DNA of 23,584 bases, from the UHGV virus genome UHGV-1336742; one strand, given 5' to 3'. Positions within the stretch are counted from its first letter, which is position 1, and each line of letters opens with the position of its first letter. The stretch is from a virus. Below, piece after piece: positions 14,925 to 17,537 of this stretch. Made by a program: the position numbers and the translations under genes. The notes beneath the pieces are model-generated. The model ran no database searches and was not told the DNA's origin. It worked only from the letters and a program-made list of their open reading frames with translations.

Positions 14925-14953
14925 AATAAAAACAAAAACCCGCCGAAGCGGGT
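14925..14953 (-). terminator. Rho-independent terminator downstream of hokD
   Basis: ACCCGC-CGAA-GCGGGT at 14938-14953 followed on the minus strand by TTTTTGTTTTTATTTTC. Confidence 0.6.
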
Positions 14954-15022
14954 TAAGTGCGGGTGCGTTGAGGATGCCTGCCACATCAGAGGTGGCGAGG
15001 GATTTCTCCCTCGCCGGGTCTC

Positions 15023-15178
15023 TTACTCCTCAGGTTCGTAAGCTGTGAAGACAGCGACCTCCGTCTGGCCGGTTCGGATTCGTACCTCGCAGAGGTCTTT
15101 CCTCGTTACCAGTGCCGTCACTATGACGGTTAAACAGATGACGATCAGGGCGATTAACATCGCCTTTTGCTGCTTCAT
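15023..15178 (-). CDS. hokD: Hok-family type I toxin (51 aa)
   Basis: MKQQKAMLIALIVICLTVIVTALVTRKDLCEVRIRTGQTEVAVFTAYEPEE: Hok/Gef family; AAGGAG Shine-Dalgarno 9 nt upstream. The track ORF extends in frame upstream to 15235 (mok-like leader). Confidence 0.85.
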   Translation of the reverse strand: MKQQKAMLIALIVICLTVIVTALVTRKDLCEVRIRTGQTEVAVFTAYEPEE

Positions 15179-15389
15179 AGCCTGCTTCTCCTTGCCTTCC
15201 GGCACGTAAGAGGCTAACCTACATGTGTCTAGCATGAAATTGGCCTCAGATTAATGTTAAGCGTCTTGCAGGACGCGTAATGTTAACTGGGGCTTTTCTC
15301 TATCTGCCTTTGGTGTTCATGCCCGAGGCAGATAGCCTCAAGCACCCGCAGCCATTCTACTTAACTACCTTTACCTCGCCAATATGAAA

Positions 15390-15479
15390 TCAGTCAGAAA
15401 GGCGATCCATAAGAACAATAGCAAGACAATAAATCGCCATTACAGCCGTAATAGCCAGCGCACATTTGAGAACCAGCAC
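15390..15479 (-). CDS. Candidate 29-aa hydrophobic single-TM peptide with strong Shine-Dalgarno
   Basis: AGGAGG (complement of 15485-15490) lies 5 nt before GTG at 15479; reads MLVLKCALAITAVMAIYCLAIVLMDRLSD then TGA. Not in the ORF track (too short). Confidence 0.25.
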   Translation of the reverse strand: MLVLKCALAITAVMAIYCLAIVLMDRLSD

Positions 15480-15681
15480 CACAACCTCCTGTATTGGACG
15501 TACACCAGTCCTGATGAATATGAGGCTGTCTCGTCAGTGATTCAATACAACTATTGGGTATAGTTTCTCTGATTTTTTCTGTGGAAATGGGACATTACAA
15601 CCTATCGCCACCAACAATTGAGACGCTAATCGCCCCATCTCGTAACCTTATCCAAAACGGGGCCTAAATCATGGCAATTGA

Positions 15682-15894
15682 CTAACGTTTCTGAGTAGAT
15701 AATGCCCTGAAGTAAGCGTTGCTAATCGATTGATAAATCTCAATATCTTCAGAACCTGCAAGTTCGACATACTCACTCTCACATGTAGACGGTTGAGCAG
15801 TGTGTTGGACACTTCTCGTGTTCGAGTGGATTGTTCCTATACTAACTTCTGTTAATATAGGTAGTTCCAACTGGTTTCTGTCGTTTTTTTTCAT
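15682..15894 (-). CDS. Hypothetical small protein (70 aa) immediately downstream of the deaminase gene
   Basis: ORF (M)KKNDRNQLELPILTEVSIGTIHSNTRSVQHTAQPSTCESEYVELAGSEDIEIYQSISNAYFRALSTQKR; an in-frame GTG overlaps the deaminase stop (GTGA); no clear Shine-Dalgarno. Confidence 0.3.
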   Translation of the reverse strand: MKKNDRNQLELPILTEVSIGTIHSNTRSVQHTAQPSTCESEYVELAGSEDIEIYQSISNAYFRALSTQKR

Positions 15895-15899
15895 ATAAA

Positions 15900-17537
15900 T
15901 CACTCAAGCCTCAACAAGTTAAGTTTATTACTATCAACTTCAGCAATAACTACCTGTTCTAATTTAGGAATCGCTTTGAGACTAACGCTATCCACAGGCA
16001 TAGCCGCACCCTCTGTCGCTAACTCTAGCACCCCAGCTTTAGATTTTCGAGATCCAGATTCAAAAAGCTCAAGAAACCTAGTTGGAGCTACTCCATCAAA
16101 TTGTATCAATTTCACTTTTTCATCCGTCTCGATTACTGATTCGGTCATCGCATCCGAATGAAGTTTAAGAGCTAAGCTTTTTCTATACGGCTCAATAAAA
16201 TATACTTCAGAGATACCAGAAGCGATAATATGCCTTGCGCAGGAATGACATGGATAGGTTGTTACAAATATTTTTCCGCCTAAAATTCTTTCTCCTGCCA
16301 CACGAGATGCGCCAAGAATCGCGTGCATTTCTGCATGAACCGCTCTTGAAAACTCTATTAAATCTTTTAATCGTGAGTTTTTTATAATAGTTTGAATCGC
16401 CGCTTCTCTTTTTTTTACAGGGATTATTTTTTCCTGTACAAGGCTATCAATGACAACTTCAGCCAATATTCTCTTTTCCGCATCATTCGAGCAATTTCTA
16501 TTTTGTAATGTATAACAACGATGATCAGGATCAATAACTTTTAAGCGGATAGATTGTTTACCATAGAGACCACCACCATTACGAGGCACATCATTCCAAC
16601 CGGTAGAAAGAAGTTCTCCAGATGAAGATGTTACTGCAGCACCAACTTGTCTTGATAGACATGCAGAATTACGAGCCGCTGAGGTGGCTGCATACATTGC
16701 ATTTTCCTCTTCAGTCGGTGATATAACTGAACTCCTAAAAATTAGCTTAAAGAAACGTTCCAGTTTAGATAGAATTTGGCCTTTAGCATCGGCATTTCCT
16801 GGCTCTGCCAACCCACTGTCAACCCGCAAAAAGTAATCACACTTCGGGAAAGTGTCTCTAACTGATTGCCCATGATCGAACTCTTCACCAGAATCGGTAT
16901 TGATTAGTTCAGCAATATCTTCAACGCTTAGTCTATTAATTTTTGAAAGATTTTCACGCCTTGCCTCTAAAGGGGAAAATACACCTATAGAGAAAATCAT
17001 TTTTCCATAGATTGATTTCAACAACTCAAGCTCAGAAGAGTTTTTAACTGAGTCAATAATATGACAAATTTTTTGATTTTTAATCTTACTCGCTTCCCCT
17101 TTGCTGGATTCATTAACAATATCATCAAATTCACCAAAGTTTTTTTTACGCTCGGCGCTAATTTTAGCAATAGCTAATTTTGCAAGAATATCACTACCAT
17201 AAATTTCACGAAGTTTATCACCCACAGTTATAAGTGACTTGAATTTCTTTAGATTAGTGCTTTCATCAATATTAATTGATGTATATTTTGAATTAATCCG
17301 GATTAGATCACTCAAGCGTATGTCGTATGTTTTATAGCCATATTTTTTAAGCGAGAATGATATCTGCTCAGCAGTCTCATGTAGCGGTGAACCAATTGGC
17401 CCACAAAGTGCGATTATAATCTCTGGAGTAACACTGTCTTTTATTTCTTGAGTTGCATTAATTGTTGACAGCTCGGCAACATCATCATTCCCAACAAGTT
17501 GAAACTCTTGACTTTTATCTAAGGCTGTGCCTTGCAT
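15900..17537 (-). CDS. 545-aa dCMP/cytidine-deaminase-domain protein with a non-canonical N-terminal domain; candidate nucleotide-depletion anti-phage defence deaminase
   Basis: Zinc-deaminase signature HAEMHAIL...PCHSCARHIIASGISEVYF preceded by SAARNSACLSRQVGAAV; N-terminal roughly 260 aa holds a Gly-rich ALCGPIGSP segment lacking canonical Walker-A GK[ST]; gene is AT-rich and sits where K-12 Qin has relBE. Confidence 0.8.
   Translation of the reverse strand: MQGTALDKSQEFQLVGNDDVAELSTINATQEIKDSVTPEIIIALCGPIGSPLHETAEQISFSLKKYGYKTYDIRLSDLIRINSKYTSINIDESTNLKKFKSLITVGDKLREIYGSDILAKLAIAKISAERKKNFGEFDDIVNESSKGEASKIKNQKICHIIDSVKNSSELELLKSIYGKMIFSIGVFSPLEARRENLSKINRLSVEDIAELINTDSGEEFDHGQSVRDTFPKCDYFLRVDSGLAEPGNADAKGQILSKLERFFKLIFRSSVISPTEEENAMYAATSAARNSACLSRQVGAAVTSSSGELLSTGWNDVPRNGGGLYGKQSIRLKVIDPDHRCYTLQNRNCSNDAEKRILAEVVIDSLVQEKIIPVKKREAAIQTIIKNSRLKDLIEFSRAVHAEMHAILGASRVAGERILGGKIFVTTYPCHSCARHIIASGISEVYFIEPYRKSLALKLHSDAMTESVIETDEKVKLIQFDGVAPTRFLELFESGSRKSKAGVLELATEGAAMPVDSVSLKAIPKLEQVVIAEVDSNKLNLLRLE

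What the first reader, a model, noticed from the sequence alone, without database searches (positions are those of the whole stretch)
15390..15491. Unannotated 29-aa hydrophobic peptide with a near-ideal Shine-Dalgarno, antisense to a 59-aa ORF, upstream of hokD
On the minus strand AGGAGG is followed 5 nt later by GTG and an ORF reading MLVLKCALAITAVMAIYCLAIVLMDRLSD, a single predicted TM helix with a charged tail, the shape of type I toxins and small membrane proteins. It lies about 210 nt upstream of hokD in the region that replaces relBE, and a plus-strand 59-aa ORF (15384-15563, no Shine-Dalgarno) is fully antisense to it. It could be an additional small toxin with an antisense RNA, or part of the deaminase locus regulation.
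Basis: seen in the sequence. Interest (0 to 1): 0.45.

Follow-up and report, generated by a model that had tools for sequence, protein, structure and literature searches.

The report
Unannotated small prophage membrane protein gene
A 29-codon gene for a tiny membrane-spanning peptide, missed by standard annotation but present in about a third of complete E. coli genomes, sits with its own promoter next to a hok/sok toxin module in lambda-like prophages; it is probably real, shows no sign of being a toxin with an antisense RNA, and has nothing specific to do with the neighbouring deaminase.

Summary
On the minus strand AGGAGG (15490-15485), 5 nt, then GTG (15479) opens a 29-codon ORF ending at 15390. 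A 59-aa plus-strand ORF lies antisense to it, and hokD starts 212 nt downstream.

Comparative data make it a probable real gene.
- 34 unbiased nucleotide haplotypes show 44 synonymous against 38 non-synonymous changes (null 25±4, P<2e-4), with third-position periodicity.
- The GTG is invariant and the Shine-Dalgarno conserved.
- Four diverged upstream classes keep only TTGAAK-N17-CATATT, a GTRTACGTCMA leader motif and GGAG.
- All 118 copies found by a leader anchor are intact.
- The antisense ORF is not conserved.

The peptide is one very hydrophobic helix with an acidic tail. It matches no Pfam, NCBIfam, PHROG or PADLOC family and has no relatives outside Escherichia/Shigella prophages.

The module borders a hypervariable cargo hotspot: 40 unrelated cargo classes, with the deaminase in 3 of 99 loci. 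It occurs without hok, and cargo junctions inside the ORF truncate it in a third of hok-adjacent loci. It is therefore accessory and tied to neither neighbour.

I found no conserved antisense promoter, terminator, RNA structure or Sok complementarity, so the type I toxin reading is unsupported. Function and translation remain untested.

The parts
15390..15479 (-). Small ORF: GTG start (15479-15477), 29 codons, TGA stop (15392-15390). Product MLVLKCALAITAVMAIYCLAIVLMDRLSD, one hydrophobic helix (about residues 2-24) and an acidic tail.
   Evidence: for the sequence. Intact in 118 of 118 leader-anchored loci and in 111 of 111 full-length hok-anchored loci. 44 synonymous against 38 non-synonymous changes with codon positions 22/17/43, z=4.5 against the null. 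Pairwise dN/dS about 0.10-0.13 against the most diverged copy L006. Hydropathy 2.58.
15485..15490 (-). Shine-Dalgarno AGGAGG, 5 nt before the conserved GTG.
   Evidence: GGAG is kept in all four diverged upstream classes. The one copy with a mutated SD (AGAAAG, L010) also carries a 2-bp frameshift in the ORF.
15495..15505 (-). Conserved leader motif GTGTACGTCCA (family consensus GTRTACGTCMA). Its role is unexplained.
   Evidence: Invariant island between diverged flanks in the five-sequence comparison. RNAalifold pairs it with codons 5-7 but without compensatory changes.
15517..15522 (-). Promoter-like -10 hexamer CATATT. The transcription start is inferred near 15510-15512, giving a leader of about 31-33 nt.
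   Evidence: Below the 9-of-12 threshold of the generic scan, but invariant across classes.
15540..15545 (-). Promoter-like -35 hexamer TTGAAT (TTGAAG in other classes), 17-nt spacer to the -10.
   Evidence: At the same position in 6 of 7 diverged representatives. 11 of 12 hexamer columns are invariant against 16 of 56 other columns, Fisher p=7.6e-5. Missing in one subclass (TCTCAT) and in the BL21 deletion.
15372..15389 (-). Conserved 18-nt tail after the stop codon. It overlaps the hok -35 (TTGGCG, 15382-15377) and about its first 13 nt are recognisably retained where hok is absent.
15546..15619 (-). Class-specific conserved non-coding flank upstream of the promoter. Homology with other cargo contexts ends near 15619, which is the right-hand cargo junction in this window.
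14937..15382 (-). Context, not part of the gene: a complete hok/sok module. It comprises the hok promoter (15382-15354), the hok leader/sok region (15173-15347), hokD CDS (15023-15178) and a terminator (14954-14937).
   Evidence: Rfam RF01794, 117 bits; PF01848.
15384..15563 (+). The 59-aa antisense ORF: judged not to be a gene.
   Evidence: 20 synonymous against 62 non-synonymous changes, and stops in 9 of 29 haplotypes. No SD. Only weak chance-level PHROG hits.

Best explanation
The ORF is a genuine accessory gene of Qin/lambda-like prophages of Escherichia and Shigella. It encodes a 29-residue single-pass inner-membrane peptide.

Shown at sequence level:
- It forms a compact unit of about 175 nt (15372-15545): a sigma-70-like promoter (TTGAAK-N17-CATATT), a leader of about 31-33 nt with a conserved GTRTACGTCMA motif, a strong SD, an invariant GTG, 29 codons and a short tail.
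- The unit is the first conserved element to the right of a hypervariable cargo hotspot that lies between the replication genes and the hok/sok-rem-ydfU-Q block.
- It is independent of whatever cargo sits in the hotspot, separable from hok/sok, and dispensable.

Inferred:
- It is transcribed in the same direction as the phage early-right operon, and its transcript probably reads on into hok as far as the hok terminator.
- By the positive-inside rule the peptide inserts with Lys5 in the cytoplasm and the acidic D/E-R/H-L-S-D tail in the periplasm.
- It acts in the membrane, most likely by binding or modulating a membrane protein or membrane process for the prophage, rather than as an antisense-controlled toxin. 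The target is unknown.
For: - Coding signature. In 34 haplotypes collected without reference to ORF content, a minimum spanning tree has 82 changes: 44 synonymous and 38 non-synonymous. The null expectation is 25.2±4.2 synonymous (z=4.5, 0 of 5000 simulations). Codon positions are 22/17/43, and none of the other five frames shows this.
- dN/dS is about 0.10-0.13 against the most diverged copy, L006.
- Non-synonymous changes are conservative (A/V/T, I/V, M/V/L/T, D/E/N, R/H, L/F). GTG, L2, L4, L8, A9, I10, I16, Y17, L19 and D29 were invariant in the 29-haplotype tabulation. S28 was invariant there too, but one S28T variant appears in the 34-haplotype union.
- Integrity. 118 of 118 loci found through the leader motif carry an intact ORF. 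So do all 111 full-length loci found through the 3' tail. The single frameshifted copy has also lost its SD.
- Expression signals. Four upstream classes with unrelated spacers and no indels keep only the two hexamers, the leader motif and GGAG.
- Membrane character: 19-aa Kyte-Doolittle mean of 2.58.
- Independence. There are 40 cargo clusters in 99 loci, and 10 of 122 loci lack hok (15, 21).
- The module is present in plaque-forming or temperate phages mEp460, Evi, Tritos and HannyBb.
- Gene callers occasionally call the ORF, as 'hypothetical' or 'membrane protein' in REL606 and BL21.
Against: - There is no experimental evidence of transcription, translation or membrane insertion. No literature hit was found for the peptide or its accessions.
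- Constraint is only moderate overall (omega about 0.4). One lineage, the BL21 / E. coli C / HannyBb type, shows dN at or above dS in some comparisons.
- In codons 17-29 of the first, partly biased set the ratio was only 4:4.
- The gene is often lost. 55 of 166 hok-anchored loci keep only a 3' remnant of about 18-48 nt.
- One subclass lacks the -35 hexamer, and BL21 lacks the whole promoter.
- Distribution is narrow and all copies are at least 83% identical, so part of the conservation reflects recent common ancestry.
- No terminator of its own was found.
Confidence: 0.7

Rival explanations
1. It is a type I toxin: a membrane-damaging peptide kept in check by a cis- or trans-encoded antisense RNA.
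For: It is small and very hydrophobic with a charged tail. It sits beside a bona fide type I system, hok/sok. A long ORF-free or ORF-bearing antisense strand exists.
Against: - No antisense promoter-like site is shared between classes, and there is no plus-strand terminator-like hairpin.
- Antisense-strand folding has z=-0.14. The sense leader is only about 31-33 nt, with z=-1.1 and no compensatory pairs.
- Sok does not pair with it better than with shuffles.
- It matches no toxin family.
- A strong SD behind a conserved promoter, with no visible antidote, in 35% of complete genomes including healthy laboratory strains argues against high toxicity.
Confidence: 0.1
2. It is not translated. The stretch is conserved non-coding DNA, such as an upstream part of the hok promoter region or a recombination flank of the hotspot, that happens to be an open frame and is conserved through recent spread.
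For: - All copies are closely related (at least 83% identity).
- 3' remnants are retained next to hok even when the ORF is destroyed.
- Absence of stop codons alone is not significant: P(at least one stop) is only 0.43 under the null.
- The SD-plus-start pattern is not rare in the window.
Against: - The excess of synonymous changes and the third-position periodicity are specific to this frame.
- There are no indels in 34 full-length haplotypes, while the flanks do carry indels.
- Conservation falls into islands at exactly the -35, -10, SD and start.
- SD loss and frameshift occur together in the one decayed copy.
- The module also occurs away from hok.
Confidence: 0.12
3. It is a regulatory upstream ORF or leader. 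On this view the act of translating it, or transcription from its promoter, tunes expression of hok or the downstream rem-ydfU-Q genes, and the peptide itself has no role.
For: The stop codon lies 7 nt from the hok -35 (TTGGCG starts at 15382). No terminator separates the two, so read-through into hok is expected. 112 of 122 loci have hok downstream.
Against: Selection acts on the amino-acid sequence, with conservative replacements and invariant residues. The module occurs without hok. About 70% of related hok loci lack it, comparing the place counts with those. hokW/sokW works as a TA system without it (PMC8621323).
Confidence: 0.06
4. It is an accessory or regulatory component of the neighbouring anti-phage dCTP deaminase.
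For: Adjacency in this window: the deaminase is at 15900-17537 on the same strand.
Against: The deaminase is the cargo in only 3 of 99 loci. The identical module flanks DUF7380, zeta toxin, ParA, SIR2, QueH, SLATT, FRG, AAA_13, DUF5677 and others. Homology between contexts breaks at about 15619, between the ORF and the deaminase.
Confidence: 0.01

Closest known systems
Validated small (50 aa or fewer) single-pass inner-membrane proteins of E. coli, such as YohP, YnhF, YncL, AcrZ, MgtS, KdpF and CydX. This comparison rests on my own knowledge of the small-protein literature.
   Same: Length class, one hydrophobic helix, short charged tail, strong SD, own promoter, and routinely missed by annotation pipelines.
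   Different: No sequence similarity to any of them: no NCBIfam or Pfam hit at E up to 1. It is prophage-borne, confined to Escherichia/Shigella, and frequently lost. Partner and function are unknown.
Type I toxins: Hok/Gef (PF01848), and also TisB, ZorO, ShoB, Ibs, Ldr and DinQ.
   Same: A small hydrophobic membrane peptide lying directly beside a hok/sok locus.
   Different: No match to the Hok/Gef model. No conserved antisense RNA gene, no long structured leader, an acidic rather than basic or aromatic tail, and an apparently unhindered SD.
hokW-sokW of Stx phages (933W, Sp5); Takada et al. 2021, PMC8621323.
   Same: The hok/sok module downstream of the ORF is 95% identical to the hokW/sokW leader region. 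Both lie in the same part of lambdoid genomes.
   Different: 933W and Sp5 lack the small ORF: homology ends at window 15375. The ORF lies outside the Rfam hok/sok model.
Phage 'morons' and lysogenic-conversion genes.
   Same: A small autonomous unit with its own promoter, inserted between conserved phage genes; accessory and variably present.
   Different: No terminator of its own. No phenotype is known.

Membership tests
Type I toxin-antitoxin system | Small hydrophobic peptide with a transmembrane helix | tested here: met
   19-aa hydropathy 2.58, GRAVY 1.74.
Type I toxin-antitoxin system | Antisense or overlapping sRNA gene with its own promoter and terminator, conserved together with the toxin | tested here: not met
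   No antisense promoter-like site shared by classes. No plus-strand terminator. Antisense fold z=-0.14. No Rfam family over the ORF; a weak reverse-strand sok hit at 15289-15431 scores 20 bits against a gathering score of 59. Sok duplex energy equals that of shuffles. These are sequence-level tests only.
Type I toxin-antitoxin system | Long, structured toxin-mRNA leader that sequesters the ribosome-binding site | tested here: not met
   The inferred leader is about 31-33 nt. Fold z=-1.1. Covariation term -0.71, with 1 of 38 pairs compensatory.
Type I toxin-antitoxin system | Toxicity on expression, neutralised by the RNA | not testable with these tools
   Needs an inducible-expression experiment.
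Hok/Gef family (PF01848) | Match to the family profile | tested here: not met
   No Pfam, NCBIfam or PHROG hit for the peptide at E up to 1, whereas the adjacent hokD scores 3e-23.
hok/sok module (as an integral part) | Lies inside the module and always co-occurs with it | tested here: not met
   Rfam sok/hok leader ends at 15347 and the hok promoter at 15382, while the ORF starts beyond at 15390. 10 of 122 loci lack hok. 933W-type hok loci lack the ORF.
Anti-phage dCTP deaminase system | Conserved co-occurrence with the deaminase gene | tested here: not met
   3 of 99 loci; 40 cargo clusters. The deaminase matches PADLOC dCTPase and the peptide matches nothing.
Small single-pass membrane proteins (a functional class, not a homology family) | Conserved start codon and ribosome-binding site | tested here: met
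   GTG invariant in 29 of 29 haplotypes. GGAG kept in all classes.
Small single-pass membrane proteins (a functional class, not a homology family) | Purifying selection in the reading frame | tested here: met
   44 synonymous against 38 non-synonymous changes with a null of 25.2±4.2, in this frame only. dN/dS about 0.10-0.13 to L006.
Small single-pass membrane proteins (a functional class, not a homology family) | Demonstrated translation and membrane localisation | not testable with these tools
   No data held. Literature searches were empty.
Phage moron | Own promoter | tested here: met
   Phylogenetic footprint of TTGAAK-N17-CATATT. Sequence-level evidence only.
Phage moron | Own terminator | tested here: not met
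   No terminator-like site lies between the stop codon and hok. The next one is at 14954-14937, after hokD.
Phage moron | Accessory: present or absent among otherwise similar phages | tested here: met
   Intact in 111 and reduced to a remnant in 55 of 166 hok-anchored loci. Full length in 1895 of 5426 genomes.

The most novel reading that the evidence does not exclude
The peptide could be a new membrane-acting prophage factor functionally coupled to its usual neighbour Hok. For example, it could act at the protein level to modulate Hok insertion or lysis timing, be a second antisense-independent membrane effector, or be a superinfection-exclusion peptide. It would then be one of the most widespread unannotated functional genes in E. 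coli, full length in 35% of complete genomes including E. coli C and B strains.
Probability: 0.15. Interest if true: 0.6.

Novelty: new member of a known kind. Interest (0 to 1): 0.38.

Why it matters
If translated, this gene is absent from RefSeq annotation of thousands of E. coli genomes. In every row displayed by the searches, PGAP had nothing annotated at the ORF; the one feature listed was a DUF977 fusion CDS overlapping it in a BL21 derivative. It would add a prophage-borne member to the poorly understood class of very small membrane proteins.

It also marks the right-hand border of a hypervariable cargo and defence hotspot in lambda-like prophages, which is useful for finding new cargo. 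It sits directly upstream of a functional-type hok/sok system whose transcription it may feed into.

It is easy to test, because common laboratory strains carry it: E. coli C has the full module, and BL21 and REL606 have a copy without the promoter. On present evidence it is an ordinary though uncharacterised accessory gene, not a new kind of system.

Tried and rejected
- Family searches of the peptide (PHROGs, NCBIfam, Pfam, PADLOC) found nothing at E up to 1.
- phmmer of the 30-aa version against 1.84 billion representatives gave only 9 hits. All are the same locus with spurious N-terminal extensions, so there are no distant or longer homologues. That rejects 'fragment of a larger gene'.
- The genome-contig scan found only Escherichia and Shigella, plus three short MAG contigs binned elsewhere that are probably mis-binned phage DNA.
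- Structured-RNA readings were rejected: Rfam has nothing over the ORF, fold z-scores are unremarkable, and covariation is negligible. The terminator-like hairpin inside the ORF (15455-15436) is broken in L006, by my own reading of the L006 sequence, so I treat it as chance.
- Sok acting in trans was rejected.
- The first GTG (15482) as start was rejected because it is not conserved.
- The upstream in-frame 34-aa ORF (15534-15638) as part of the gene was rejected. It is separated by a TGA and crosses the cargo junction, and fusions occur only in sporadic variants.
- The antisense 59-aa ORF was rejected.
- My first synonymous/non-synonymous counts used loci found by peptide patterns and were therefore biased. 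I replaced them with samples anchored on flanking DNA.
- Literature searches for the peptide string, protein accessions, and small proteins near hokD returned nothing relevant.

Full report
**1. What is in the sequence**

The window is a Qin-like lambdoid prophage of E. coli. The stretch 15236-15700 is 99.8% identical to strain KK19-02.

- The annotated gene order there on the window's minus strand is: O-like, DUF977 (frameshifted), anti-phage dCTP deaminase, then nothing annotated, then hokD, rem, a hypothetical gene, ydfU and ydfT/Q.
- Reading the minus strand gives CAGGAGG-TTGTG-GTG. AGGAGG is at 15490..15485, a 5-nt spacer follows, and the GTG is at 15479..15477.
- 29 codons follow, ending in TGA at 15392..15390. 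The product is MLVLKCALAITAVMAIYCLAIVLMDRLSD.
- The ORF listing starts one codon earlier, at the GTG at 15482. That codon is not conserved (see section 3).
- The plus-strand 59-aa ORF 15384..15563 is present and shares codon register with the small ORF.
- The hokD CDS is 15023..15178, so the ORF's stop lies 212 nt upstream of it.
- In K-12 Qin, relE-relB abut hokD and the small ORF is absent.

**2. Is it more than chance?**

From this window alone, no.

- AGGAGG-N4-9-(A/G/T)TG occurs four times, against 2.4±1.5 in shuffles.
- The peptide's best 19-residue Kyte-Doolittle mean is 2.58, far above the usual membrane-helix threshold. That places it in the top 0.7% of the window's 436 short stop-to-stop segments.

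The case rests on comparison with related loci.

**3. Comparative evidence that it is a gene**

The 135-nt stretch around the ORF matches 2494 of 5426 complete E. coli genomes. It matches at 80% coverage or more in 1895 of them (35%), with up to five copies per genome. No gene is annotated at the ORF in any of the rows displayed. The single feature listed under a match was a 'DUF977 family protein' CDS in a BL21 derivative; see section 6.

An alignment of copies retrieved by DNA similarity shows several things.
- The second GTG, the SD and the whole frame are kept while upstream sequence diverges.
- The first GTG varies: GTC, TAT or GTT.
- The one copy with a 2-bp deletion in the ORF (L010) has also lost its SD (AGAAAG).

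My first larger sample came from peptide-pattern scans and was therefore biased. I built two samples that do not depend on ORF content.
- Leader anchor GTRTACGTCMAANRNRGGAGRT in IMG/VR. All 118 untruncated loci have an intact ORF starting at the expected GTG. 115 have 29 or 30 codons. Three have C-terminal extensions; the two 35-aa copies (L160/L170) arose from an 11-nt deletion of the stop.
- 3' anchor GATTTYAYATTGGCGAGGT, which is the tail plus the hok -35. Of 166 loci, 111 carry an intact full-length ORF and 55 carry only a 3' remnant. No full-length copy is disrupted.

Pooling these with the blastn set gives 34 distinct haplotypes.
- A minimum spanning tree has 82 changes: 44 synonymous and 38 non-synonymous.
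- Placing the same transitions and transversions at random gives 25.2±4.2 synonymous (z=4.5, 0 of 5000 simulations).
- Changes by codon position are 22/17/43, and no other frame shows this pattern.

Pairwise dN/dS against the most diverged copy (L006) is about 0.10-0.13. It is about 0.5 for the 35-aa variant. In the BL21 / E. coli C / HannyBb lineage dN is at or above dS in some comparisons. Constraint is therefore real but moderate.

Replacements are conservative (A/V/T, I/V, M/V/L/T, D/E/N, R/H, L/F). In the 29-haplotype tabulation, GTG, L2, L4, L8, A9, I10, I16, Y17, L19, S28 and D29 did not vary. One S28T variant appears in the 34-haplotype union.

The absence of stop codons is not informative by itself: P(at least one stop) is 0.43 under the null.

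**4. Expression signals**

Four upstream classes have essentially unrelated spacer and leader sequences but identical lengths. They keep only four islands.
- ATTGAA(T/G)
- CATATT, 17 nt further on
- GT(R)TACGTC(M)A
- GGAG

Of the hexamer columns, 11 of 12 are invariant, against 16 of 56 other columns (Fisher p=7.6e-5). In the window these are -35 at 15545..15540 and -10 at 15522..15517. A start near 15510-15512 is inferred, which gives a leader of about 31-33 nt.

At 8 of 12 matches, the pair falls below the threshold of the generic scan. That scan does find the hok promoter (15382..15354) and the terminator after hokD (14954..14937), and nothing between the ORF and hok. Read-through into hok is therefore expected, but this is an inference.

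One subclass has TCTCAT in place of the -35. A deletion in BL21 removes the whole promoter.

The leader motif is unexplained. RNAalifold pairs it with codons 5-7, but without compensatory changes.

**5. What it is not**

- Not part of hok/sok. The Rfam hok/sok model covers 15173-15347 (117 bits). Homology to the hokW/sokW locus of 933W ends at 15375, and 933W has no such ORF. 10 of 122 loci have the module without hok, with a convergent DUF1971 gene downstream. Comparing place counts, only about 30% of related hok loci have the ORF.
- Not linked to the deaminase. The 1.5 kb on the cargo side falls into 40 unrelated clusters among 99 loci, and the deaminase accounts for 3. Other cargo includes DUF7380, zeta toxin, ParA, an MFS transporter, SIR2, QueH, DUF5677, SLATT_4, FRG and AAA_13.
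- No sign of a type I toxin architecture. No antisense promoter-like site is shared between classes. There is no plus-strand terminator. Fold z-scores are -1.1 (sense) and -0.14 (antisense). The covariation term is -0.71, with 1 of 38 pairs compensatory. Sok pairs with the ORF's mRNA no better than with shuffles, while its true target scores -136 kcal/mol.
- Not a fragment of a bigger protein, and not a member of any known family. Pfam, NCBIfam, PHROGs and PADLOC give no hit. phmmer against 1.84 billion representatives finds nine proteins. All are the same locus at 83% identity or more, with accidental N-terminal extensions.

The ORF has been called sporadically in GenBank as 'hypothetical protein' or 'membrane protein', for example ACT39199.1 of REL606. 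I found no paper mentioning it.

**6. Dispensability**

In the hok-anchored sample the cargo junction lies inside the ORF in 55 of 166 loci. At least four independent remnant classes are left.
- About 21-27 nt directly after the QueH stop: 45 loci.
- About 18 nt, diverged: 5 loci.
- About 39 nt: 2 loci.
- About 48 nt: 3 loci.

A complete genome confirms the QueH junction. The partial matches (query positions 1-37) are the same thing.

In BL21-type strains a deletion fuses DUF977 to the module just upstream of the leader motif.

The gene is therefore accessory and often lost. When the full length is present it is kept intact.

**7. Most likely mechanism**

*Shown at sequence level.* This is an autonomous unit of about 175 nt (promoter, leader, SD, 29 codons) under in-frame purifying selection. 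It encodes one very hydrophobic helix with an acidic C-terminal tail. It is carried by functional temperate phages (mEp460, Evi, Tritos, HannyBb) and by prophages of Escherichia and Shigella. It lies at the right edge of a cargo hotspot, between the replication genes and the hok/sok-rem-ydfU-Q block.

*Inferred.* The peptide is made in lysogens and/or during early-right transcription. It inserts in the inner membrane with Lys5 inside and the D/E-R/H-L-S-D tail outside, by the positive-inside rule. It acts there on a membrane protein or process for the prophage's benefit. I put about 0.7 on 'real small membrane-protein gene'. The specific target is unknown.

*Rivals.*
- Type I toxin: about 0.10.
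- Untranslated conserved DNA: about 0.12.
- Regulatory upstream ORF for hok or downstream genes: about 0.06.
- Deaminase accessory: about 0.01.

**8. Novelty and verdict**

This is an uncharacterised and largely unannotated member of a known kind, the very small single-pass membrane proteins and phage accessory genes. It is not a new type of system.

It is moderately interesting because of its prevalence, its absence from reference annotation, its position next to a functional-type hok/sok module and a defence hotspot, and the ease of testing it in E. coli C or B strains.

Noticed in passing
window about 15620-17900 (cargo side); loci L100-L289: The segment between the DUF977 replication-region gene and the small-ORF/hok block is a hypervariable cargo hotspot. 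It falls into 40 unrelated 1.5-kb clusters in 99 loci. Many are defence-like: dCTP deaminase, SIR2, SLATT_4, FRG, AAA_13, DUF5677, zeta toxin, DUF7380. QueH, ParA and an MFS transporter also occur. K-12's relBE sits at the same place. I found no paper describing this lambdoid hotspot, but the search was limited.
   Followed up: partly
window 14937-15385 (-): The gene annotated 'hokD' here is a complete hok/sok module. It has its own promoter, a leader 95% identical to hokW/sokW of 933W, a 70-aa in-frame 'MokW-like' extension and a terminator. K-12 hokD, by contrast, is fused behind relBE.
   Followed up: partly
window 15495-15505 (-): The leader motif GTRTACGTCMA is invariant across four otherwise diverged upstream classes, about 10 nt before the SD. 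No function is assigned. A possible pairing with codons 5-7 has no covariation support.
   Followed up: partly
L220 and 44 similar IMG/VR loci; L290 (E. coli FORC_043) 1501-1540: A widespread deletion joins the QueH stop codon to codon 24 of the small ORF. It leaves AAGGAG-N7-ATG GAT CAC CTT TCT GAT TGA, a 6-codon mini-ORF with a fortuitous SD.
   Followed up: partly
L004 (T7Express/BL21) 2565-2924; L005 (E. coli C): In BL21-type strains a deletion fuses a shortened DUF977 gene (119 aa instead of 140) to the module. This removes the small ORF's promoter, and the fused CDS overlaps the ORF's 5' end. E. coli C has the full module downstream of QueH.
   Followed up: partly
L001 (phage HannyBb) 2545-2834: The automated annotation of phage HannyBb calls two plus-strand 'hypothetical proteins' over this region: the 35-aa ORF antisense to the hok leader, and the ORF antisense to the small ORF. 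The antisense frame shows no coding signature, so these are probably wrong-strand calls.
   Followed up: partly
window 15682-15903 (-): A 73-aa ORF overlaps the stop codon of the dCTP deaminase and runs into the deaminase-to-small-ORF spacer. It has no PADLOC hit and is not annotated by PGAP. Not examined further.
   Followed up: no
window 15534-15638 (-): A 34-aa ORF lies in the same frame as the small ORF, separated from it by a single TGA (15533-15531). A database protein (P0011, 82 aa) is the read-through fusion. The 34-aa ORF crosses the cargo junction, so it is not conserved.
   Followed up: partly
window 14933-15014 (-): Weak sub-threshold Rfam match to isrK, a Salmonella prophage Hfq-binding sRNA, over the hokD 3' end and terminator: 25.7 bits against a gathering score of 50, E=0.003.
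   Followed up: no
L160, L170 (IMG/VR): The most diverged full-length variant, MLALTCVLAIVAVLVIYCLVVAFMERFSDWRGRGS, has lost its stop through an 11-nt deletion. Its ORF therefore ends inside the hok promoter region.
   Followed up: partly
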